From Eledone cirrhosa (Eukaryota): a stretch of 64,000 nucleotides of DNA. The DNA lies in NCBI GenBank assembly GCA_964016885.1, contig OZ024750.1, positions 36,890,001-36,954,000 of the forward strand. Direction: 5' to 3'. The translations under genes were made by a program, and so were the position numbers. Positions 11,881 through 63,800 of the stretch are shown here, one piece after another; within the stretch, counting starts at the first letter, position 1; each line of letters begins with the position of its first letter. The notes under the pieces were generated by a model. That model made no database searches. It saw only the letters and a program-made list of their open reading frames with translations, and was not told where the DNA came from.

Positions 11881-12367
11881 TAATATATATATAAACAAAT
11901 TAACTCAAAAATAGTGTTTTGAGATGCGAGTGTATTAGGAAAATGGGAAAACTCGGCATATGGAAACTGTTAGAACAGCAAAATACTGTTGAAGCAGCGT
12001 TTGCTAAAATATTACCTCAAAGGACAGAGATCAGTGGCTTGATGTGAGTTGACTTGAAGGAAGGAAGAGAAGATATGAAAGAAGGAAAAAGAATGGATAA
12101 AAGTGAACAAGTCACAAACATTAAAATATTCTCTTCAGATCTCAACCTCCAGCAGTTTCGGCGAATCAATGAGATTACTGCGGGGATTAGGAGGCTCGTA
12201 AAGGAGAAGCAAATATCTTCTTTCATATATTGTTTGTGTTGGGATAGGTTAAAGAGTGAGAGAGAGATGGAGAGAGAGAGAAAGATGAAGTGCGTGTGAT
12301 CAAATCCAAGTCGCCACAAGAAAGGAAGAATATTGGCATATATGTAGATATATAGATATATGATATA

Positions 12368-12680
12368 TAGGAAAAAATATGACCCCGACGGCAGAGCTCG
12401 AGCCGTTTCGACGGCTATTTCTGGACTCAGAATGTGTGGGGGTAAGGAATCAAACCGTCAACATTAGTCTAACGTCTTTACCACTATGCCACTCACCTCC
12501 TTAGGACAGGAGGTTATTTATAATATTCTGGACTCAGAAATAGCCGTTGAAACGGCTTGAGCTCTGCCATTGGGATCATACTTTTTCCTATTACCCACTC
12601 TACTACCCTAAGTATTGAGTATTGAGTACTCTGGTGCGTTATGGTCCATCTGGTTCCTTACCACACCTCCTTCGTTATAT
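12368..12680 (+). mobile_element. Palindromic (GACGGC/GCCGTC) short element with an insertion in its loop
   Basis: Homologous to the two copies at 52811-53208. Confidence 0.8.
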
Positions 12681-13020
12681 GATATATGGTGCAAATTGAT
12701 TTGGCTTCAAGGCAGAGAGTATTTTCATTACAGTACAAGTATATGTAATTATGAATGGTGTATGAATTGTGTGACAAAGAAAATCAAGGTTTTCAAACAA
12801 ATTTATGCTAATGATAGACATAGCTGCTGTTTGATAAATAATAATCAATAGATATTTATATATATCAAAAGAATCCAATTACATTTTACTTTAACTTTTA
12901 ATGTGGCATTATATAATTGTTTTTTTCATTCTTGGAGAAATGGTTTACTGTTTCCCTTTTATAGAATCCAATAATATGTTTGTAGTATCAAATGAATAGC
13001 TGCAGAATTGTTCAGACATT

Positions 13021-14003
13021 GGTAGTGGTGGTGGTGGTGGTGGTAGTTGTGGTGGTGGTGGTGGTGGTAGTAGTACAGTGGTAGTTGTGGTGGTGGTGGT
13101 GGTAGTTGTGCTGGTGGTAGTAGTACAGTGGTAGTTGTGGTGCTGGTGGTAGTACTAGTGGTAGTTGTGCTGGTGGTTGTGGTGGTGGTAGTAGTACAGT
13201 GGTAGTTGTGGTGGTGGTGGTAGTGGTAGTTGTGGTGGTGGTGGTGGTAGTGGTAGTTGTAGTGGTGGTGGTAGTTGTGCTGGTGGTTGTGGTGGTGGTA
13301 GTAGTACAGTGGTAGTTGTGGTGGTAGTGGTAGTTGTGCTGGTGGTTGTGGTGGTGGTGGTGGTGGTAGTAGTAGTTGTGCTGGTGGTTGTAGTGGTGGT
13401 GATGGTGGTAGTAGTAGTTGTGCTGGTGGTTGTGGTGGTGGTGGTGGTGGTAGTTGTGCTGGTGGTTGTGGTGGTAGTGGTAGTACTAGTGGTAGTTGTG
13501 GTGGTGGTAGTAGTACAGTGGTAGTTGTGGTGGTGGTGGTGGTGGTGGTGGTGGTGGTGGTGGTGGTGGTAGTAGTTGTGCTGGTGGTTGTAGTGGTGGT
13601 AGTAGTAGTTGTGCTTGTGGTGGTGGTGGTGGTAGTAGTAGTACTAGTGGTAGTTGTGGTGGTGGTGGTGGTGGTGGCGGTGGTAGTAGTACTAGTGGTA
13701 GTTGTGTGGTAGTGGTAGTTGTGCTGGTGGTGGTGGTGGTAGTTGTGCTGGTGGTTTTGTTGGTGGTGGTAGTACTAGTGGTAGTTGTGGTGGTGGTGGT
13801 GGTGGTGGTGGTGGTGGTGGTGGTGGTGGTAGTAGTAGTACTAGTGGTAGTTGTAGTGGTGGTGCTAGTGGTAGTGGTAGTTGTGCTGGTGGTGGTGGTG
13901 GTAGTTGTGGTTGTGGTGGTGGTGGTAGTAGTACTAGTGGTAGTGGTGGTAGTGGTGGTGGTAGTGGTGGTGGTTGTGGTAGTGGTGATGGTGGCAGTAG
14001 TGG
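13021..14003. repeat. Compound (GTG/GTA)n trinucleotide repeat
   Basis: Direct reading; source of the poly-V/T/G ORFs. Confidence 0.95.
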
Positions 14004-14366: not shown

Positions 14367-14670
14367 CAAGTGTTCCATGCATTTTCATTGAAACTAAAAC
14401 ATGCTTTTCAAATATCTTACTTAAAGAATTCATAAGAAGGGTGGGCTGGGGTGAGAGGAGAAAACCAACATAATTCTAAATATAATTCATATTTGAATCA
14501 AAAGAAATATGTTTGGGGTTTATTTTATGAGAAACATAACTTAACTTATAATTATCAACACTGAACATTGTGCTGTATTATTGTTGGGAAAATATGATAA
14601 AGTATTTAAAACAATCATGTAATATTGTTATGTTTGTTACAACTCATCCTTCCTATCAAAAAGCTTGCAA

Positions 14671-15562
14671 AACTGGTCATGTAGCTGTCACAACAAAAAG
14701 TGCCCAACCCACACTATAAAGTGGTCATGTTGGTGTCACAACAAATAGTGCCCAGCCCTCACTGTAAAGTGGTCATATAGGTGTCAACAAAAAGTGCCCA
14801 ACCCACACTATAAAGTGGTTATGTTGGTGTCAGAGCAAAAAGTGCCCAGCCCACACTGTAAAGTGGTCATGTAGGTGACACAACAAAAAAGTGCTCAACC
14901 CACACTATAAAGTGGTCATGTTGGTGTCACAGCAAAAAGTGCCCAGCCCACACTGTAAAGTGGTCATGTAGGTGTCACAACAAGAAGTGCCCAACCCACA
15001 CTATAAAGTGGTCATGTTGGTGTCACAACAAAAAGTGCCCAGCCCTCACTGTAAAGTGGTCATGTAGGTGTCACAACAAAAAGTGCCCAACCCACACTAT
15101 AAAGTGGTTATGTTGGTGTCAGAGCAAAAAGTGCCCAGCCCACACTGTAAAGTGGTCATGTAGGTGTCACAACAAAAAGTGCCCAACCCACACTATAAAG
15201 TGGTTATGTTGGTGTCAGAGCAAAAAGTGCCCAGCCCACACTGTAAAGTGGTCATGTAGGTGTCACAACAAAAAGTGCCCAACCCACACTATAAAGTGGT
15301 CATGTTGGTGTCAGAGCAAAAAGTGCCCAGCCCACACTGTAAAGCGGTCATGTAGGTGTCACAACAAAAAGTGCCCAACCCACACTATAAAGTGGTCATG
15401 TTGGTGTCACAGCAAAAAGTGCCCAGCCCACACTGTAAAGTGGTCATGTAGGTGACACAACAAAAAAGTGCTCAACCCACACTATAAAGTGGTCATGTTG
15501 GTGTCACAGCAAAAAGTGCCCAGCCCACACTGTAAAGTGGTCATGTAGGTGTCACAACAAAA
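14671..15562. repeat. 48-bp minisatellite with 96-bp higher-order dimer
   Basis: Unit AAAGTGGTCATGT(A/T)GGTGTCACA(A/G)CAAAAAGTGCCCA(A/G)CCCACACT(A/G)T. Confidence 0.92.
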
Positions 15563-16189
15563 ACATCGCCACTAATCATGTAATATTTTTGTAAAATATT
15601 TTGCAAACCAACTAAATAAAATTGCAAGCCAAGACAAGGAAAAGATGTAGAAAATTAACCAAATATAGATAACAACTTGTTCAAATTGATTTTACTGTGC
15701 AGAATTAGGATTAGGTAGAAATAATAGAAATATTTAAATGAAAGATATATATCATCATCATCACTGTTTAACATCCATTTTCCACACTAGCATGGGTTAG
15801 GCAGGTTGTCTCATTTGAGGCAAGTTGGGTCAGATGACCATGTCATGCTCACACAGAACTATTTCTGGCTTGGTTTCTATGGCCGCATGCCTTTCTTAAT
15901 ACCAAACGCATTTACAATGCGTACTGGGTACTTTTTGTCACCTACATGACCTCTTTATAGTGAGTACTGGGTGCCTTTTGTCATGACACCAACATGACCA
16001 CTTTACAGTGTGGGCTGGGCGGTTTTTTTCGTGACACCTGCATGACAATAAATAAAATAAACTAATAAAATAATCGATATTAAAAATAAATTAAGAGAGA
16101 TAATCGCTTAGGAAGACTTTTTGGTTGGGGTTTGTTTCTTCAATTTGTTAAAGTCATTTGTCAATAACTTCTGTCACTATTTGTTGAGA

Positions 16190-40224: not shown

Positions 40225-40444
40225 ATCTATAAACAACTATCTGGTTGTGGAACCAACCAACCAACCAGAAATTTATAAGTTTGTAGATTTGTAAATTTAT
40301 AAATTTATAAATATATAATAAATTGAAGTGAAAGCAACTGGTGCGTGTGTTTCTTATTGGCAACATGACCCTCCCAAAGTATAACAATATCGGTTTCAAC
40401 ACACGATTTCAGATAAAGAATCTTACTAAACAAATTCAGAAACG

Positions 40445-40479
<35 letters not shown>

Positions 40480-40885: not shown

Positions 40886-40914
40886 CACGAATATATAATT
40901 ATATATATATATAT

Positions 40915-41372
40915 ATCGTTTCTGAATTTGTTTAGCAAGATTCTTTATCTGAAAACGTGTGTTGAAACCAATATTGTTATACTTTGGGAGGGTCATGTTG
41001 CCAATAAGAAACACACGCACCAGTTGCTTTCACTTCAATTTATTATAAATTTATAAATTTAGGAATTTATAAATTTCCGGTTGGTTGGTTCCACAACCAG
41101 ATGGTTGTTTATATATTGTCAAAGTTCTTTCGTCACACATTCTGTGACCTCTTCAGTGACTGGGATTCTTTTCTTTGTTTTTGTGCCTCTCCTTTGTTCT
41201 GTCCTACGCCATCTTGTTTCTGTGTGTTGTGTGCTCAGTCTGCGCATGCGCCACATCCGGGTGTCAGTGTGTGTTTATATTCGTTTATTTATTTGTTTAT
41301 TTACATTTTACAGGTTGGTTGTTTATTCTATGTGCGTGTGTGTTTTCATTTTGTCCTTAATTGTAAGTTGTG
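40915..41372 (-). mobile_element. Solo Penelope pLTR (HHR at 41118-41160)
   Basis: Reverse complement of 39890-40450; intact CTGAAGA/GAAA core. Confidence 0.9.
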
Positions 41373-41747: not shown

Positions 41748-41790
41748 ACTGCAGACATTAATGTTTCTGAGTGATTACCCTTCATCAGCT
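41748..41790 (-). ncRNA. Second tandem hammerhead copy, 5' stem I missing
   Basis: CTGATGA-AGGGTAATCACTCA-GAAA-CATTAAT-GTC-TGCAGT; palindromic stem III ACATTAATGT. Confidence 0.7.
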
Positions 41791-41883
41791 GTTGGGGTCC
41801 TGACTCTTTTCCTATTACCTACTCTACTACCCTAAGTGGTGCGTTATGGTCCTCCTGGTATCTTGCTACACCCTCTTTGTTAA

Positions 41884-41923
<40 letters not shown>

Positions 41924-44995: not shown

Positions 44996-45362
44996 GCTCA
45001 GATTTATATTATCAATAATTTAAGAAAGTTTAACATAAAACTCCTGTACATCTTCAGCTATCAACATGTATGAAAGTAATTTTACATTAATTTTTAGTCA
45101 TTTGGGAATGATTGGAATTCAAATTGATACCATTTATTATATTGTGTCCCTCCTACAGGGCAGTGGATTGGCAGTATCAGTGGAGCGTCAGACACCATTC
45201 TTTGCAGCAAAGAGTTATGGCCCTTTACGTTCTGAGTTCAAATGCCACCGAGGTTAACTGATAAAATGAAGCACCATTAATGCACTGGGGTAATTGCTGG
45301 CTTTGTGTCAAAAGTAGAAACAATTATTTCAGAACTAAAAGACAAGAATAATGCATGTTTTA

Positions 45363-46182
45363 TTTGTAGAAACATTGTCTGATATATAACTGTTTTGTAG
45401 AAACATTGTCTGATATATAACTGTTTTGTAGAAACATTGCCTGATGTGTAACTGTTTTGTAGAAACATTGCCTGAAATTAACTGCTTTGTAGAAACATTG
45501 TCTGAAATTAACTGTTTTGTAGAAACATTGTCTGAAATTAACTGTTTTGTAGAAACATTGTCTGAAATTAACTGTTTTGTAGAAACATTGCCTGAAATTA
45601 ACTGTTTTGTAGAAACATTGCCTGAAATTAACTGTTTTGTAGAAACATTGTCTGAAATTAACTGTTTTGTAGAAACATTGTCTGAAATTAACTGTTTTGT
45701 AGAAACATTGTCTGAAATTAACTGTTTTGTAGAAACATTGTCTGATGTATAACTGTTTTGTAGAAACATTGTCTGAAATTAACTGTTTTGTAGAAACATT
45801 GCCTGATGTGTAACTGTTTTGTAGAAACATTGTCTGAAATTAACTGTTTTGTAGAAACATTGTCTGATGTATAACTGTTTTGTAGAAACATTGCCTGAAA
45901 TTAATTGTTTTGTAGAAACATTGTCTGAAATTAACTGTTTTGTAGAAACATTGTCTGAAATTAACTGTTTTGTAGAAACATTGTCTGAAATTAACTGTTT
46001 TGTAGAAACATTGCCTGAAATTAATTGTTTTGTAGAAACATTGTCTGAAATTAACTGTTTTGTAGAAACATTGTCTGAAATTAACTGTTTTGTAGAAACA
46101 TTGTCTGAAATTAACTGTTTTGTAGAAACATTGTCTGAAATTAATTGTTTTGTAGAAACATTGTCTGATATATAACTGTTTT
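45363..46182. repeat. 30-bp minisatellite (~27 units)
   Basis: AACTGTTTTGTAGAAACATTGTCTGAAATT. Confidence 0.95.
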
Positions 46183-47742
46183 GTTGTTCTTCTTAATTTT
46201 GTGGTGGTGGTGGTGGCAATGGTGGCTGCTGCTGCTGCTGTTGTTGTTCATACGGAATATTTCTTGAGTCTAGAATAGCTGTTAACTATAAATAGAAAAC
46301 ATAATATTAAAAGGGAAATGTTTCTAATAATCTATAAACTGAGATATAATGCAATATTTTGTGACTTTACCTTGATGGCTTTTATCAACAGATCATCTTT
46401 ATATGATTAGGAAATGTTCTTTGTTGCTAGACAAAAGATTTGCATTAGTGTTCACTTAATACTTGCTGTTTCATTCTCTTATGTTCTGTATTCAATATCA
46501 TCCTATACAAACATCCATATTTATCTTTAATGTATACATATATATCATTTTAATCGATGTAGCATTTTTTAATTAACAGATAATAAAATATTAGGTATTT
46601 GATCTGAAGTATTTCTTCAACAAGAATATCTTCTCTCTAACATTAATAAATATGAAACTCAACTCAGAATGTTTTTCCATTGTACATTGATTTCATCATT
46701 TTGAAATATAATCAAAAACGATGCTCATAGGCTATAAAAGCAAGAAAGTAATTTTAATATAACATGTAGGCTTATAAAATCATGATCATATTGTGTAAAG
46801 ACAATAGCATAATCTTCCTATACATCTCCCTAACAAAATGCAGTTCACTTGCAGATAATGTCAACATATTTGCTATTTATTTTGTATCCTTTTTCACTTC
46901 ACACATACACACAACAAAATAGAACCTCACAAACTCTTTTATAATCTCATCTGCCTCAACTTCATCTGCACATAGTTGCAAGCAATCCTTCAATTATTTC
47001 AGCCTAACAAAGTGACAGTTGTTTTCAAAACAGTCTCTAGCATCACTACATTCTTCAACTTTTCTTTTTTTATGTTTTAATTCCATGTTGACACACATTG
47101 GCAGTTGCTTAAATGAACCCCTGTACTTAACTGGTATATTATTTTATTGATCTTGGAACGATGAAAGGCAAAGTTAAACTTGATGGGATTTAAGCTCAGA
47201 ATATAAAGAGCCAGAGCAAATATTGTTTCTACTTCTGGCACAAGGCCAGCAATTACCCCAGTGCATTACTGTTGCTTTATTTTATCGACCCCGGAATTTG
47301 AACTCAGAACGTAAAAGATCATAACTCTATGTTGCAAAGCATGGTGTCTGACGCTCTACCGATACTGCTAATCCATCGCCCTGAATAAATATTGCAAAGC
47401 ATTTTGCCAGTTGCTATAGTAATTCTACAAATGCCCCACCCCTCAAATCATACCCTGCCTTCTGAAGAGAGAAAGGATATATTAAACAATGTAGTTCTTG
47501 ATATACAAAAATTTATAATCCAAGGTATAACAGCCATAGAATGTCTTAGCTGATAGATCTGTTTGATGAAGGTTGATCTGGAGCTATACAACAACAATAA
47601 TCTCCTCTACAATAATAAACTATGTACCATTTCTCAGCTCCCATCAAACTGTGGCACCCCCACCTATCTTCCTGTTATCCTTACTGTTGTTGTAACCCAC
47701 CCTAACTGTGTACCATTCCTCAGCTTCCATTAACCCAGCTGT

Positions 47743-52790: not shown

Positions 52791-52810
52791 ATCTCCACTT
52801 CTTATATATA

Positions 52811-53208
52811 TAGGAACGAATAGGACCCCGACGGCTGAGCTCAAGCCGTTTCGACGGCTAATTCTGGACAGAATTCTGATCAGAATTAGCCGTCGAAACG
52901 GCTTGAGCTCAGCCGTCGGGGTCCTACTCATTCCTATTACCCACTCTACTACCCTAAGTATTGAGTACTTTGGTGCGTTATGGTCCACCTGGTTCCTTAC
53001 CACATTTCCTTCGTTATATATATATAGGAAAATGTTTAACCCCGACGGCAGAGCTCAAGCTATTTCGACGGCTATTTCGACCAGAAATAGCTGTCGAAAC
53101 GGCTTGAGCTCTGCCGTCGGGGTTAAACCTTCTCCTATTACCCACTCTACTACCCTAAGTATTGAGTACTCTGGTGCGTTATGGTTCCTTACCACACCTC
53201 CTTCGTTA
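52811..53208 (+). mobile_element. Two tandem ~200-bp palindromic elements separated by (TA)n
   Basis: ~115-bp palindrome plus ~80-bp conserved tail in each copy. Confidence 0.85.
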
Positions 53209-53227
53209 TATATATATATATATATAT

Positions 53228-54462
53228 ATCGTTTCTGAATTTGTTTAGCAAGATTCTTTATCTGAAAACGTGTGTTGAAACCGCTATGGTTATACTTTGG
53301 GAGGGTCATGTTGCCAATAAGAAACATACGCACCAGTTGCTTTCACTCCAATTTATTATAAATTAAAAAAATTTATTTTTTATTTTTTAAAAAGATTTAT
53401 AAATTTCTGGTTGGTTGATTGGTTCCACAACCGGACGGTTGTTCATATATTGTCAAAGTTCTGTCGTCATACATTCTGTGACCTCTTCAGAGACTGGGGA
53501 TTCTTTTCTTTGTTTTGTGCCTCTCCTTTGTTTTGTCGTACGCCATCTTGTTTTTGTGTGTGTTGTGTGCTTAGTTTGCGCATGTGTTATATCCGGGTGT
53601 CTGTGTGTGTTTTTAGTTTTTATTTATTTGTTTATTTACATGTTATTGGTTGTTTGTTCTATGTGTGTTTTCATTTTGTCCTTAATTGTAAGTTGTGATG
53701 TTGCTATTCCATTCATGTTTTCTATTTAATTTTGGTTGGAGTTCATTTATGTTTATTGCCTCTGTGATTTGTCTAAACATTGCGTCTTTTCTGTGTGTAG
53801 ATTTTATTTTTATTTCTATGTTCTCTAATTTGCCCTTATGTTCTATTTTAGCATGTTGGTGGAGTACTGATGATTCTTTTTTATCTTGACGCTCTCACCA
53901 GTGTTCATTTAGCTGTTCTCCTATACTACGAGCTGTCTCACCTATGTACACTATATTCTTATCTTTACATTGTCCTTCAGTACATTTTATGCTATATACT
54001 ACATTTCTAGTTTTACGGTTAATATGGGGGCTTAGTTTACAGATTATGCATTTCTTATCTATACAGGGAGGTCTTTGAAAAGGGTATGTATTACTAATAA
54101 GTATTTTTATGGAGGTACCGGGTCTTTCTACTATCTTAATATTAAGTTTAAGTTTATCTAGGGCCCTTCTAAATTTGTAAGCTAATTCACCTCTAGGGGT
54201 CGTATTGCTGAACTCTGATATTTATTGCTATCATACCATGAGTTTATTCTATTAACCTTATTCCTAGTTCTTTCTATTCTATTCCAAAATTTTCTCCTAT
54301 ACAAGGGGCAGGTCCCATTTGTATAATTATTTACCATTTTTTCCCATTTGGTTCTGGCTCCTCTATATACTCTGATTTTATCTCTCTGATTGTAACCAGA
54401 GAACTGCATACGGTGAATGAAGTGTTGTATGTGTCTCTCTAGTTCTTTGGGGTTGCACATGC
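53228..54462 (-). mobile_element. 5'-truncated PLE copy (thumb, GIY-YIG, pLTR)
   Basis: Homologous to 39115-40450; HHR at 53452-53494 with GAAA changed to GACA. Confidence 0.92.
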
Positions 54463-56979: not shown

Positions 56980-58270
56980 AAGTCGGGTCTTCTGTATTAC
57001 TGTGTGATGCCAGAGGTCACGGTCCTGTGTCATCGCCTTTGAGGGGTGCATTTGGGCAAGGTCAGCTTTTATCACCTCATCCCCGGTTCTCTTAGGTCTC
57101 CCCACTTTACGGCTTCCATCAACTTCTAGTGCTCTGCACCTTTTTATGCAGCTGTCATCCTTCATACGCATCACATGTCCATGCCAACTCAACCTCCGCT
57201 CCTGCACACAGCATTTGATTCCTCTTATGTTCAGACTTTCTCCCAATTCGTTTATGCTTTGCTGTTCGTTACACATGCACCGGAGCATGAAAGCTTCATT
57301 TCTTTCCAATCTACGCAAGTCTTCTACACACAGCGCATAGGTCTCACTACCATGTAACATTGTTGTTCGTATGCACACATCATACAGTCTGCCTTTCATT
57401 TTGAGGGAAAAGCCTTTTGCAGCTAGCAGTGGTATTAGCTCCCTGAACTTCTTCCATCCCGTTCTTACCCTGGTTAGTGCACTTTCAGAACACCCACCTC
57501 CACTGCTAATTCGGTCACCTAGATAGCAGAAGCTGTCTACTGTTTCCACAGAGCCCTCCCAGAGTTTGGTAGTGCTTGTATCCTGTGGCCATTTTCTGCT
57601 TACTGTCCCGGTGCAGCTGCTACATGTAAAGCCTACATTCTTAACTAAGCTTCCTGAGATCCCACTTCATCACTTCTGTACCCATAGTTTGCATTTGAAG
57701 CAGAGGATGAAATTCCTACCTACACCTTTCCTACATACTGAGCAAGGCCATTTCCCTGAGGCGATTTGGGTTCTGTTTTCTCGTCTGGTTACCTTAGTCT
57801 TTGTCAGGTTGACTTTGAGACCCCTTCTTTCTAGTCCCTGCTTCCATGTTTGGAATTTCTTCTTTAGTTCTGTCATAGATTCAGCTATAAGTGTAAGATC
57901 ATCCACATACAGGAGTTCTTAAACTGTTCTGTTAAAGCCTGCAATACTATAATAAACAGGTGAGGGCTAAGAACAGAGCCCTGGTGGACACTGACCAAAT
58001 GTCTCACTATAGTCATTGTTAACCCTAACATTGCTGACTACTTCCCTATACATGGCTTGTACAGCCTTCATAAGCCATTCATCTGCTCCTAGTTTTCTTA
58101 GAGCCCACCAGATAATGGAGCAGGGGACTCTGTCAAAGGCTTTTTTCCAGATCGCCAAATGCCAGGTAGAGCAACTTACTTTTAGCTAGGTACTTTTCCT
58201 GCAACTGCCTCACAAGGAAGAGAGCATCAGTGGTGCCTTTTCCTAGCACAAACCCAAACAGCTCATCCAT
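56980..58270 (-). mobile_element. RTE LINE RT to C-terminus, frameshifted
   Basis: KAFDRVP, YVDDLTL, KWPCSVCRKG, FCYLGD, LHGSETY, WHGHVMRM. Confidence 0.9.
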
Positions 58271-58287
58271 AGATAACGATAAACAAG

Positions 58288-58533
58288 AATCCTCCAGAAT
58301 CAACACATCTCCCACACTTACATCTAGAGTCAACACATCTCCCCCACTTACCTCTAGAGTCAACACATCTCCCCCACTTACCTCCAGAATCAACACATCT
58401 CCCCCACTTACCTCTAGAGTCAACACATCTCCCCCACTTACCTCCAGAATCAACACATCTCCCCCACTTACCTCCAGAATCAACACATCTCCCCCACTAT
58501 CCTCCAGAATCAACACACCTTGTTCACTATCCT
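58288..58533. repeat. 30-bp minisatellite (resumes 60062-60135)
   Basis: CCTCCAGAATCAACACATCTCCCCCACTTA units. Confidence 0.9.
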
Positions 58534-60061
58534 CAGTGGTGGATTAACAATATAAGCAAAGTAAGCACGTGCTTAGGGCATCAAAGGAAGAAGGGGCACC
58601 TCAAAATTTTTTTATATGATGAATTTACAGTTTAAATTATTAAATTAATTAATTTTATAGCAATTTTCAAAATGAAATAAGAAATGAATAAATTTGGTAT
58701 AAACATAGTTGTTCATTTCAGTTTATTTGTTAAATATCAGTTTTTCAGACGTTTATCTTTAGAAATTTTTCTGAAACTCCAATGTATTCTGGTTCAATTT
58801 TAAAATGGCTACATGCTTGCTGAAATGTTTTTTAAGGTTTATGAATATAGCCACCAGCTGAAAGTTTTTTGATACTCCCAATCCCAACTAACCAAGGTTT
58901 ATTTTCTGCTTCTTTTTATTAACAATTCTGTTCATTAGGGTTTTTTAGTTTTTTTACAAATTTTTTTTTTAACTTGAACCTTTTAATATTGTAGACTCTA
59001 TATCAAAAATAATTGTCATTTGTGTTCTAGATTATCTGCTATATAGTATAACCTTTTTATTTCTACATAATTTTTTTATTTTTTTATATTTTATCTGAAC
59101 AAACTCAAGCTTTAATTTTATAACTGTATTTGCTGATTGTTTATTTGGATTCATACCATCCTTTTTCAAATCTAACCATCAGATCTAATTAACAGATCCC
59201 CAAAAAATCTAACCATTCAAATCTAATTAACAGATCCCGAAAACCAAGATGAAACGCATTCAGTTAAAACGAAAACTTTCAAACAAGAAACAAGAAAAAG
59301 CTTCGGAATTAGATCGCAAGACAGCAAAGCTGACTAATTTTTTCTCACAAGTTCCACAACATGATTTACAGATTCCAGGTCAAAACCGATATATGTTATC
59401 AGAAGTAAACATGAATATGGCAAATACAACTTTGATTACTTCAGAATCAAAATATGATGACATTAGAAGTACCGAGATGTCGCAAGCATGTTCATCCAGC
59501 ACATGTCTCACAACTGATCTTACTTTGCCTGTGAATTCTCTTTATTCAGATACCTCTACTGCAAATGATGATAGGGCTCAAATAATTGCTGAAAATAGAA
59601 GTTTAGAGCACTGTGACAATGGCGGTGAAATTAATTTGCCTGTAAAAAATGAAGAAAATTACAATTTAGCGAACGACCCAGGAATGTGGCTTGATTTCTC
59701 TGCTAATGATATAGCTTATTTGATTACTTGTGAACCCAGTATTTGTCAACACCATAACGGGCCATTTGAAAAGTCTTGCCGTCATTTTAGTAGTGGCAAA
59801 CCAGTAAGGTATTGCTCACAGAAACTTTTTATTGGAACAAAAGCCAATAGTGAAAAATACAAGAGAGAGTGGTTACTCTATTCACCATCAAGAGGATCAG
59901 TTTATTGTTTTGTTTGTAAACTGTTTGCTCGTGAAAAAAAATCAATTTTTTGTTTCAAGAGAAGGGTTCATATATTATTGTTTATGTTTTAATCTAAAAA
60001 TGTATGGGGGCACCAACATTTTTTAGTGCTTAGGGCCTCTAAGGGTTTTAATCCGGCCCTG
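58534..60061 (+). mobile_element. Internally deleted hAT (Tip100-like) transposon
   Basis: TIR CAGTGGTGGATTAA / TTAATCCGGCCCTG; perfect 8-bp TSD ACTATCCT; subterminal GTGCTTAGGGC at both ends. Confidence 0.88.
59249..59992 (+). CDS. Truncated hAT transposase N-terminus with TTF-type zinc finger
   Basis: DPGMW and KREWLLYSPSRGSVYCFVCKLFA; no catalytic domain before the TIR. Confidence 0.7.
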   Translation: MKRIQLKRKLSNKKQEKASELDRKTAKLTNFFSQVPQHDLQIPGQNRYMLSEVNMNMANTTLITSESKYDDIRSTEMSQACSSSTCLTTDLTLPVNSLYSDTSTANDDRAQIIAENRSLEHCDNGGEINLPVKNEENYNLANDPGMWLDFSANDIAYLITCEPSICQHHNGPFEKSCRHFSSGKPVRYCSQKLFIGTKANSEKYKREWLLYSPSRGSVYCFVCKLFAREKKSIFCFKRRVHILLFMF

Positions 60062-60894
60062 ACTATCCTCCAGAATCAACACACTTCCCTCACTATCCTC
60101 TAGTATCAACACATCTCCCTCGCTATCTTCCAGAGCAATGTTTTCTTCAATATGTCTGTTGGGACCACAAGGCAGCTTGTATGTGGGCTTCTGCACACCA
60201 GAGAGCATCTTCCCACTCAATCCAGGCTCATATCATTAGGACAGTAAAACTCGAATATTCTTCTCATATTCACTGTCATTTGTTATTATTTATTTCCATC
60301 TAGCACCATTGTTTCCAACCGTTTCACCACCATAGACCCCTTTTATTTAACTATTTTGTTCCAATATTTCTAATGAAAATCTCTGCTTATGATTTTCTAA
60401 TAATTTGGAAGGATTTAGTAATATAACTAATGTTCTCATTATTAAGCTGGTGTTTGACGCATAACTTAACAAAAGTTCTTATATAAAATAACAGTCGCTT
60501 TTGTTCTGATTTCTATTCAAGGATGGAAGTGAATATTGATCTTATTAATCATAAATAGGAACATTTGATTAGCAATAATTATCTCTATTCAACTCCATTT
60601 TTATGATTTCATCTTTTGCACTAAACTAGTTGTTAAAACTTCTTTATTTCCTATATCACTGTCTGCAGATTGCTATTTCTGGAGTCTATAGCAGGTGATA
60701 TTTCAATTGGATAAACTTAAGCCTAAATCCTATTATTCCTACCATCCATCATATTTAACAAGCCAAGTATATTCTGCATGATTTCTTTATATGCTATTCA
60801 TTGTCACTTAGTATACTGCTACCATTTATGCTATTATGAATTGCTCCTGCTACAATCTTGTTTAAATTTTGATAGTTACTTTCTGCCAATTTAT

Positions 60895-63800
60895 CAGTGT
60901 CTTGGGTGAGAGGAGAAGTCACTATCACAGTGTCTTGGGTGAGAGGAGAAGTCATTATCACAGTGTCTTGGGTGAGAGGAGAAGTCATTATCACAGTGTC
61001 TTGGGTGAGAGGAGAAGTCACTATCACAGTGTCTTGGGTGAGAGGAGAAGTCACTATCACAGTGTCTTGGGTGAGAGGAGAAGTCATTATCACAGTGTCT
61101 TGGGTGAGAGGAGAAGTCATTATCACAGTGTCTTGGGTGAGAGGAGAAGTCACTATCACAGTGTCTTGGGTGAGAGGAGAAGTCACTATCACAGTGACTT
61201 GGGTGAGAGGAGAAGTCATTATGCCAGTGTCTTGGGTGAGAGGAGAAGCCACTATCACAGTGTCTTGGGTGAGAGGAGAAGTCACTATCACAGTGACTTG
61301 GGTGAGAGGAGAAGTCATTATGCCAGTGTCTTGGGTGAGAGCAGAAGTCACTATCACAGTGTCTTGGGTGAGAGGAGAAGTCACTATCACAGTGTCTTGG
61401 GTGAGAGGAGAAGTCATTATCACAGTGTCTTGGGTGAGAGGAGAAGTCACTATCACAGTGTCTTGGGTGAGAGGAGAAGTCACTATCACAGTGACTTGGG
61501 TGAGAGGAGAAGTCATTATGCCAGTGTCTTGGGTGAGAGGAGAAGTCACTATCACAGTGTCTTGGGTGAGAGAAGTCGCTCTCACAGTGTCTTGGGAGAG
61601 AGAAGAAGTCATTATCACAGTGTCTTGGGTGAGAGAAGTCACTATCACAGTGACTTGGGTGAGAGGAGAAGTCATTATACCAGTGTCTTGGGTGAGAGGA
61701 GAAGTCACTATCATAGAGTCTTTGGTGAGAGAAGTCGCTCTCACAGTGTCTTGGGTGAGAGAAGAAGTCATTATCACAGTGTCTTGGGTGAGAGAAGTCA
61801 CTATCACAGTGTCTTGGGTGAGAGAAGTCACTATCACAGTGACTTGGGTGAGAGGAGAAGTCATTATCACAGTGACTTGGGTGAGAGGAGAAGTCACTAT
61901 CACAGTGTCTTGGGTGAGAGGAGAAGTCACTATCACAGTGTCTTGGGTGAGAGGAGAAGTCATTATCACAGTGTCTTGGGTGAGAGGAGAAGTCACTATC
62001 ACAGTGTCTTGGGTGAGAGGAGAAGTCACTATCACAGTGACTTGGGTGAGAGGAGAAGTCATTATGCCAGTGTCTTGGGTGAGAGGAGAAGTCACTATCA
62101 CAGTGTCTTGGGTGAGAGAAGTCGCTCTCACAGTGTCTTGGGTGAGAGGAGAAGTCATTATACCAGTGTCTTGGGTGAGAGGAGAAGTCATTATCACAGT
62201 GTCTTTGGTGAGAGAAGTCGCTCTCACAGTGTCTTGGGTGAGAGAAGTCACTATCACAGTGACTTGGGTGAGAGGAGAAGTCATTATCACAGTGACTTGG
62301 GTGAGAGGAGAAGTCACTATCACAGTGTCTTGGGTGAGAGAAGTCACTATCACAGTGACTTGGGTGAGAGGAGAAGTCACTATCACAGTGTCTTGGGTGA
62401 GAGGAGAAGTCACTATCACAGTGTCTTGGGTGAGAGAAGTCACTATCACAGTGACTTGGGTGAGAGGAGAAGTCATTATCACAGTGTCTTGGGTGAGAGA
62501 AGTCACTATCACAGTGTCTTGGGTGAGAGGAGAAGTCACTATCACAGTGTCTTGGGTGAGAGAAGTCATTATCACAGTGTCTTGGGTGAGAGAAGAAGTC
62601 ATTATCACAGTGTCTTGGGTGAGAGAAGTCACTATCACAGTGTCTTGGGTGAGAGGAGAAGTCATTATCACAGTGTCTTGGGTGAGAGGAGAAGTCATTA
62701 TCACAGTGTCTTGGGTGAGAGGAGAAGTCACTATCACAGTGTCTTGGGTGAGAGGAGAAGTCACTATCACAGTGACTTGGGTGAGAGGAGAAGTCATTAT
62801 GCCAGTGTCTTGGGTGAGAGGAGAAGTCATTATCACAGTGTCTTGGGTGAGAGAAGAAGTCATTATCACAGTGTCTTGGGTGACAGAAGTCACTATCACA
62901 GTGACTTGGGTGAGAGGAGAAGTCATTATGCCAGTGTCTTGGGTGAGAGGAGAAGTCACTATCACAGTGTCTTGGGTGAGAGAAGAAGTCATTATCACAG
63001 TGTCTTGGGTGAGAGAAGTCATTATCACAGTGTCTTGGGTGAGAGGAGAAGTCACTATCACAGTGTCTTGGGTGAGAGGAGAAGTCACTATCACAGTGAC
63101 TTGGGTGAGAGGAGAAGTCATTATGCCAGTGTCTTGGGTGAGAGGAGAAGTCATTATGCCAGTGTCTTGGGTGAGAGGAAAAGTCACTATCACAGTGTCT
63201 TGGGTGAGAGAAGTCACTATCACAGTGTCTTGGGTGAGAGGAGAAGTCACTATCACAGTGTCTTGGGTGAGAGGAGAAGTCACTATCACAGTGTCTTGGG
63301 TGAGAGAAGTCACTATCACAGTGTCTTGGGTGAGAGAAGTCACTATCACAGTGACTTGGGTGAGAGGAGAAGTCATTATCACAGTGACTTGGGTGAGAGG
63401 AGAAGTCACTATCACAGTGTCTTGGGTGAGAGGAGAAGTCACTATCACAGTGTCTTGGGTGAGAGGAGAAGTCATTATCACAGTGTCTTGGGTGAGAGGA
63501 GAAGTCACTATCACAGTGTCTTGGGTGAGAGGAGAAGTCACTATCACAGTGTCTTGGGTGAGAGAAGTCATTATCACAGTGTCTTGGGTGAGAGAAGAAG
63601 TCATTATCACAGTGTCTTGGGTGAGAGAAGTCACTATCACAGTGTCTTGGGTGAGAGGAGAAGTCATTATCACAGTGTCTTGGGTGAGAGGAGAAGTCAT
63701 TATCACAGTGTCTTGGGTGAGAGGAGAAGTCACTATCACAGTGTCTTGGGTGAGAGGAGAAGTCACTATCACAGTGACTTGGGTGAGAGGAGAAGTCATT

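What the first reader, a model, noticed from the sequence alone, without database searches (positions are those of the whole stretch)
52811..53208. Covarying palindromic element carrying only the 3' half of a hammerhead on both strands
Each copy reads TAGGAA..CCCC-GACGGC..GCCGTTTC-GACGGCTA..TAGCCGTC-GAAACGGC..GCCGTC-GGGG..TTCCTA plus a conserved tail. The arms differ between the three copies but stay complementary within each (TAGGACCCC/GGGGTCCTA, TTTAACCCC/GGGGTTAAA, TATGACCCC/TGGGATCATA; GCTGAG vs GCAGAG). The right half matches stem II-GAAA-stem III-GUC-stem I, but where CUGANGA should be there is the complement of that half. It can fold as a rod or a four-way junction. Possibilities: an HHR overwritten by quasi-palindrome correction yet still mobile, a trans-cleaved substrate half, or a new hairpin-type element.
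Basis: partly seen in the sequence, partly recalled or inferred. Interest (0 to 1): 0.75.

Follow-up and report, generated by a model that had tools for sequence, protein, structure and literature searches.

The report
Double-primed stumps of a Penelope retrotransposon
These mirror-image repeats are short stumps of a very abundant Penelope-type jumping gene, likely made afresh at each site by copying the start of its RNA onto both cut DNA strands, and their inner ends carry an extra G that likely records the RNA's cap, which would explain why only half of the gene's hammerhead ribozyme is present.

Summary
The palindromes are real but are not a separate element. They are the short end-product of a Hydra-type Penelope-like retrotransposon in the same genome: 3,531-bp unit, intact 717-aa RT + GIY-YIG ORF, and a complete type I hammerhead with a U3-A8 core. 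Each insertion sits in (TA)n and has two head-to-head arms, one ending 20 and one 100 nt past the ribozyme cut site (33,238 and 29,730 pattern hits; 4,173 reach the 5' core). Most arms stop at or just short of one base inside stem II (-41). Where an arm meets (TA)n there, 62 of 100 carry an untemplated G, against 1 of 28 three bases away: the signature of a copied cap. A smaller class stops at the cut site without that G. So the arms are likely two cDNAs run from internal start sites to the RNA's 5' end, which holds only half a hammerhead. The covariation is copying, not structure. The architecture is published, and this scan noted double priming before on other DNA. I found no paper with the cap signature. 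No RNA data were available.

The parts
52810..52869 (-). Copy 1, short arm: element positions +19 to -40 (0 = first base after the hammerhead cut site), inverted
   Evidence: positions read against full-length copies
52870..52880 (.). Copy 1, junction insert between the two arms, made of short pieces of the arm ends (end-joining scar, inferred)
   Evidence: sequence
52881..53017 (+). Copy 1, tail-bearing arm: positions -37 to +99; hammerhead 3' half with cut site at 52917^52918
52938..53017 (+). Copy 1, 80-nt tail between the two arm end points (+20 and +100)
52943..52966 (+). Bulged hairpin (4 bp, 2-nt bulge, 4 bp) just behind the +20 end point; its twin lies at about +103 in the parent and is absent from the stumps
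   Evidence: fold of the parent's sequence; role as start signal is inferred
53018..53023 (.). (TA)n target remnant between the two independent insertions
53024..53078 (-). Copy 2, short arm: +19 to about -35, inverted (different subfamily from copy 1; long parent of this subfamily is L240)
53081..53209 (+). Copy 2, tail-bearing arm: -38 to +99 with a 9-nt deletion in the tail; cut site at 53118^53119
53210..53229 (.). (TA)n target flank
12367..12678 (+). Third copy, same two-arm anatomy, split at its centre by a 93-nt insertion with a 14-bp target duplication
41785..41884 (+). Older fragment: 3' end of the hammerhead half plus tail

Best explanation
Each palindrome is one insertion of a Hydra-type Penelope-like retrotransposon, likely built at the landing site from two cDNAs that were primed on opposite nicked strands of a (TA)n target and joined head to head. 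SHOWN: the parent (3,531-bp unit, intact RT + GIY-YIG ORF, complete U3-A8 type I hammerhead) exists in the genome; one arm ends at +20 and the other at +100; inner ends pile up at and just short of -41; an untemplated G stands at -42; a minor class ends at the cut site. INFERRED: transcription starts at the A of (T/C)TAGTC or TCAGTC at -41, inside stem II, so the capped RNA begins with only the 3' half of the ribozyme. The protein, probably a dimer bound at the tail, primes at +20 on one strand and at +100 on the other. Both cDNAs run 60 and 140 nt to the cap, copy it as a C, and are trimmed and joined. INFERRED, weaker (about even odds): long arms and tandem arrays come from a second template with no end at -41, most likely a circle made after hammerhead cleavage.
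For: Parent; period 3,531; best fold match TERT; Hydra motifs match PMC8557442 section 11. One-of-each rule: 33,238 versus 29,730 arms; 52 of 54 adjacent partners of tail arms are +20 (95 copies examined); of 30 +20 arms, 22 have a +100 partner, 0 a +20 partner, 8 not called. (TA)n follows the tail in 92 of 95. Stop zone: 52 of 61 tail arms that reach -33 end by -48, and 1 of 9 ends in the next 136 nt. Cap signature: G in 62 of the first 100 of 291 (TA)n junctions at -41, 1 of 28 at -38, 3 of 42 at the cut site; full copies have T or C there in 56 of 56; older sister families show the same edge and G in 9 of 27. Made anew each time: 36 centres in 43 copies. Shared template: arms differ by 2.5 nt within a copy and 6.3 between copies (n = 37); long arms pair with long arms in 54 of 100 hits. 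In vitro precedent: another PLE nicks and extends both strands and starts at two internal sites that bound the tail (PMC11167929). Untemplated G is read as the cap in LINE-1 and SVA (PMC4859970 passages).
Against: No RNA evidence: the start site, the cap and cleavage are read from DNA scars only. An RT that prefers to add C at any strong stop could mimic a cap, though cut-site ends lack the G. A simple capped template does not explain long copies: only 1 of 21 ORF-bearing copies ends in the -41 zone and 18 run past -80, so a second template class must be assumed. A few insertions pair arms of different subfamilies (L129; L211; C1:13660176 with 13660273, by eye), so one RNA per event is not absolute. 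The G excess is weaker in the sister families (9 G, 10 A of 27, six of the A in one array). Base counts were made by eye from the listed rows. A subfamily has CTGAGAA (C3-A8 mismatch, 8 of 36) and still spread.
Confidence: 0.8

Rival explanations
1. Same parent, but the mirror arm arises by fold-back self-priming of a single cDNA or by copying an antisense transcript, as proposed for rotifer Penelope elements.
For: Arms usually match within a copy (25 of 37 identical at the diagnostic 9-mer); short overlaps are common at junctions; proposed in PMC3846280 Discussion (passage).
Against: Either arm can be longer than the other and hold sequence the other lacks (L039, L131; L096, L106). Both arms can carry the extra G (GGACTC...GAGTCC). 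Some pairs are from different subfamilies. The tail-less arm ends at a fixed second site (+20).
Confidence: 0.1
2. The -41 edge is not a capped start but an RT stall or an RNA processing site in the stem II loop, with an untemplated C added by the RT.
For: The edge lies in a structured region; ends spread over -33 to -48; no RNA data.
Against: G is specific to -41 (62 of 100) and not to -38 (1 of 28) or the cut site (3 of 42). The edge follows the AGTC motif in diverged sister families. The motif resembles the initiator consensus TCAKTY (recalled). No constant upstream exon is seen at junctions.
Confidence: 0.07
3. A non-autonomous palindromic element (hammerhead overwritten by template switching, or a MITE-like unit) that moves as a whole.
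For: Tens of thousands of similar-sized copies; one centre recurs 5 times in 43; stumps keep the likely start site and could be transcribed.
Against: 32 of 36 centres are singletons, and 30 of the loci held were picked by likeness to copy 2. Ends are asymmetric. Every subfamily checked has long ORF-linked or full-hammerhead versions. Stumps lack the second hairpin behind +100.
Confidence: 0.03

Closest known systems
Hydra clade of C-terminal EN+ Penelope-like elements (Craig et al. 2021, PMC8557442; passages, section 11, supplement passages), e.g. Hydra-1_Obim
   Same: Single ORF of about 700 aa, DKT motif, CxCX5C linker, CxxC and CxH in the nuclease, (TA)n target, hammerhead near the 3' end; motifs match the supplement's alignment by eye.
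   Different: A different family from Hydra-1_Obim (other protein sequence and other hammerhead, by eye). Unit is 3.5 kb. Core is U3-A8, stem II is long and stem III has 5 bp. Tail is 80 nt, not 30-40.
PLE insertions with inverted pLTR and optional tail (PMC3846280 passages; PMC8557442 fig. 2 legend)
   Same: Inverted 5'-truncated copy next to a direct copy, tail at one end only.
   Different: Here most insertions are only the two stumps, with a fixed inner edge and an extra G. Those papers' passages propose self-priming or leave the mechanism open.
Poseidon_Ac in vitro (Frangieh et al. 2024, PMC11167929; parts 1-2 of 4 read)
   Same: Two internal RT start sites bounding the tail, both target strands cut and extended, AT-rich target, predicted dimer, product length set by the RNA's 5' end.
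   Different: Other clade. That study saw no RNA-seq ends at the cut site and did not map a start site; here DNA scars mark both a likely capped start and the cut site.
PLE hammerheads and the circular-template proposal (Cervera and De la Pena 2014, PMC4209133; passages)
   Same: U3-A8 core variant already reported in Schistosoma PLEs; palindromic loop III; circles proposed as template for more-than-unit copies.
   Different: Those are minimal motifs with almost no stem III; the transcript starting inside the ribozyme was not in the passages I saw.
LINE-1 twin priming and cap-derived G (PMC4859970; passages)
   Same: Two primings give an inversion; untemplated G marks the capped 5' end.
   Different: LINE-1 primes first at the poly(A) tail and inverts in a minority of events; here both primings are internal, at fixed sites, in most events.

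Membership tests
EN+ Penelope-like element | Telomerase-like RT and GIY-YIG nuclease in one ORF | tested here: met
   717-aa ORF with YRDD; model pLDDT 87.8, top fold hit TERT; top homolog carries PF01541, recalled as GIY-YIG. Direct Pfam and PDB sequence scans were blank.
EN+ Penelope-like element | Tandem or partial-tandem pLTR, inverted truncated copy, tail at one end | tested here: met
Hydra clade | DKT motif, CxCX5C linker, CxxC and CxH around E and N | tested here: met
   HSDKTG, CNCPDRSIC, CNLC, CKH against section 11
Hydra clade | N-terminal RWK motif | tested here: inconclusive
   reads RWR, a conservative change
Hydra clade | (TA)n target and a hammerhead | tested here: met
   92 of 95
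Hydra clade | Generally shorter than 3 kb | tested here: not met
   unit is 3,531 bp because of a long 3' UTR; the paper gives this as a tendency
Hydra clade | Placement in the RT tree; absence of the CCHH motif | not tested
   no tree or alignment with reference PLEs was built
Type I hammerhead (parent element) | Three stems round the core, 3-8 pair, G10.1-C11.1, GAAA, NUH | tested here: met
   three-way fold; position 7 takes all four bases; 3-8 is U-A, C-G or U-G in 12 of 14 rows, 86% of cells paired (related sequences, weak test). Rfam does not score it.
Type I hammerhead (parent element) | Self-cleavage at NUH | not testable with these tools
   indirect only: 42 (TA)n junctions at the cut site against 2, 2 and 7 at nearby positions, plus 29 in the other TA phase
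Hammerhead (window copies) | Complete catalytic core | tested here: not met
   5' core absent on both strands
MITE or Helitron | Terminal inverted repeats at both ends with a DNA-transposase parent, or TC...CTRR ends | tested here: not met
   asymmetric ends, variable centre, RT-encoding parent; no Dfam or Repbase search was available
Non-LTR retrozyme | Non-coding tandem repeats, each with a whole hammerhead | tested here: not met
   copies are dispersed, head-to-head and hold half a ribozyme

The most novel reading that the evidence does not exclude
The element starts transcription inside its own hammerhead, and this sets a switch. The capped RNA cannot cut its 5' end by itself and yields only 'strong-stop' stumps. 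When the 5' half is cut by the catalytic half from the RNA's 3' end (or from another molecule), the RNA is closed into a unit-length circle that yields long and tandem copies. The roughly 30,000 stumps would also be outward-facing start-site pairs spread through the genome.
Probability: 0.3. Interest if true: 0.8.

Novelty: new member of a known kind. Interest (0 to 1): 0.52.

Why it matters
How Penelope-like elements make their inverted repeats and what their hammerheads do are open questions (PMC8557442, PMC11167929). This family gives tens of thousands of natural products with base-exact ends: two priming sites, a likely capped start and a likely ribozyme cut. Intact copies exist, so each step can be tested with RNA end-mapping and purified protein. 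It also warns that such palindromes give false covariation signals and can be filed as MITEs.

Tried and rejected
Rfam found no hammerhead in the window or in the parent. Pfam and PDB sequence scans of the ORF were blank. No RNA holder was listed among sequencing runs, so no reads were laid. No complex prediction for a dimer was obtained. Structural covariation of the rod was rejected: arms agree because they share a template. A splice acceptor at -41 was rejected for lack of a constant upstream exon. A main start at -45 was rejected: 16 junctions, 3 with G, against 291 at -41. The cut site as the main end was rejected: about 10 of the first 100 rows (by eye), and a minor class overall. A simple model in which long copies are primed at the 3' end of the capped RNA was rejected (1 of 21). 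A by-sequence look-up in earlier findings was blank, as was one for cap and start-site words. Paper searches for the cap signature or both-strand priming in PLEs listed nothing beyond the papers cited; the library lacks most subscription journals, and bioRxiv supplements and Repbase or Dfam entries could not be seen.

Full report
Observation. The window holds two adjacent copies at 52810-53017 and 53024-53209, a third at 12367-12678 and a fragment at 41785-41884. Each is a long palindrome plus a one-sided tail between (TA)n runs. The arms are 94% and 87% complementary and fold as rods (z = -17, -16). The right arm reads as the 3' half of a type I hammerhead. The genome is 3.0 Gb and one tail 21-mer occurs 29,431 times. 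Positions below count from the first base after the cut site GUC^ (0).

The parent. Among the first 30 tail hits, 4 were not palindromic but ran upstream through ACCCC-(T/C)TGANAA-G to a longer body, and three of these led to remains of a nuclease gene. A protein search found many near-identical copies with open frames of about 784 codons, some in arrays of period 3,531. Locus L174 holds an intact 717-aa ORF. Its model (pLDDT 87.8) matches TERT best, and 2,049 homologs were found among 7,996 candidates scored, the best at about 40% identity. DKT, CxCX5C, CxxC and CxH motifs and the (TA)n target match the Hydra clade (PMC8557442 section 11). That paper's supplement lists a Hydra-1_Obim, which is a different family by eye. 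I built no tree. The host looks like a cephalopod from memory; that was not tested.

The ribozyme. In the parent the region folds as a three-way junction. Of 36 distinct full copies, 28 have TTGANAA with all four bases at position 7 and 8 have CTGAGAA. Older sister families have CTGANGA, so the 3-8 pair changes on both sides between families (14 related rows, a weak test). U3-A8 is already reported for PLEs (PMC4209133 passage). Rfam scores neither form.

Two arms, one of each kind. Arms ending at +20 number 33,238 and arms running on into the tail 29,730. Only 4,173 hits reach the 5' core (the patterns differ, so ratios are rough). I examined 95 of the 100 tail hits listed. An adjacent partner was called in 54, of which 52 end at +20. 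Of 30 arms ending at +20, 22 have a tail-bearing partner, none a +20 partner, 6 had none called and 2 were out of view. Either arm can be the long one. This fits the in vitro behaviour of Poseidon_Ac, which cuts and extends both strands and starts at two internal sites bounding the tail (PMC11167929, parts 1-2 of 4).

Why only half a hammerhead. Of 61 tail arms that reach -33, 52 end by -48; of the 9 that pass, 1 ends in the next 136 nt. Extents are inflated by junction microhomology and two copies were mis-anchored (L139, L167). The sharp edge is the A at -41. To avoid confusion with the partner arm I counted arms joined directly to (TA)n. There are 291 such junctions at -41, and the base before the A is G in 62, T in 26, A in 7 and C in 5 of the first 100 rows (by eye; four G rows are one array). 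At -38 there are 28 junctions with 1 G, and at -45 16 with 3 G. Full copies have T or C at -42 in 56 of 56. With any neighbour, purines at -42 are G in 89 of the first 100 of 6,456 hits, 34 of which could come from the partner arm. Sister families show the same edge and G in 9 of 27. Untemplated G is read as a copied cap in LINE-1 and SVA (PMC4859970 passages). I infer a capped start inside stem II. The stumps are then complete copies of the RNA's first 60 and 140 nt, and that RNA end holds only the 3' half of the ribozyme.

The cut site. (TA)n junctions at position 0 or -1 number 42, plus 29 in the other TA phase, against 2, 2 and 7 at nearby positions (one search excludes one subfamily).

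Not a mobile palindrome. The 43 short symmetric copies held have 36 different centres. Arms differ by 2.5 nt within a copy and 6.3 between copies (37 of 43 compared), so the 'covariation' is subfamily variation copied twice. A few insertions pair different subfamilies (L129; L211), and some carry the extra G on both arms. Both argue against fold-back of one cDNA, the mechanism suggested in PMC3846280 (passage).

What does not fit simply. Long arms pair with long arms: 54 of 100 core hits lie in head-to-head pairs. Of 21 ORF-bearing copies among 30 loci (four from one array), 1 ends in the -41 zone, 2 near +90 and 18 run past -80. So long copies use a template with no end at -41. A circle after ribozyme cleavage, proposed in PMC4209133 (passage), fits best; read-through transcripts or efficient end-to-end jumps are alternatives. 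No RNA run was listed, and no dimer prediction was obtained.

Novelty. The architecture, the clade, the U3-A8 core and internal initiation are published. Earlier notes of this scan describe double-primed PLE palindromes, a short-end/long-end rule and junctions at RNA ends on other DNA; they are unchecked AI notes and not support. The family appears unlisted in the one supplement I searched. The cap signature and the start inside the ribozyme did not appear in my searches. Of the 2026 retrozyme preprint and the 2026 Octopus repeat paper I saw passages only, and of PMC2377424 passages only. Verdict: a new member of a known kind whose stumps make an open mechanism testable; interest 0.52.

Noticed in passing
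window 12433-12525: A 93-nt insertion with a 14-bp target duplication (12419-12432, 12526-12539) splits the third copy at its centre; its reverse strand looks like the head of a tRNA-derived SINE (recalled resemblance).
   Followed up: partly
window 53230-53373, 40287-40470, 40891-41074: Another repeat family ending in (TA)n lies directly behind copy 2 and as an inverted pair at 40.3-41.1 kb; it shares the word CTGGTGCGT with the tail and may be another Penelope-like family.
   Followed up: no
L063-L092, L253-L282: Older sister families with the canonical CTGANGA core, the same stem III, the same two-arm anatomy and the same inner edge (1,792 hits for one degenerate pattern).
   Followed up: partly
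L054:400-1453: The 3' end of a different GIY-YIG family is joined to a truncated arm of this family, between (TA)n flanks; possibly a template switch or mixed insertion.
   Followed up: no
G000:C2:356030076-356031888: Seven hits of the tail-to-5'UTR junction at a 299-bp period: a short tandem array that may be a retrozyme-like derivative. L304 also shows a short tandem.
   Followed up: no
L284, L287, L289, L290, L305, L310: Arms that begin well past +100 (about +160 to +310, one at +918), which suggests rarer priming at further internal sites.
   Followed up: no
L042, L099, L100, L103, L112, L146: A subfamily with core CTGAGAA (C3-A8 mismatch, or a register shift) that still produced copies.
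   Followed up: no
L046, L143, L213: Poly(A) or poly(T) runs of 13-15 nt at the inner end of arms near -41, likely untemplated additions to the cDNA end.
   Followed up: no
window 13001-13900, 14622-15609, 45298-46290, 58251-58560, 60847-62600: Tandem arrays with periods of 9-12, 48, 30, 30 and 33 bp, and a frequent SINE-like family across the window.
   Followed up: no
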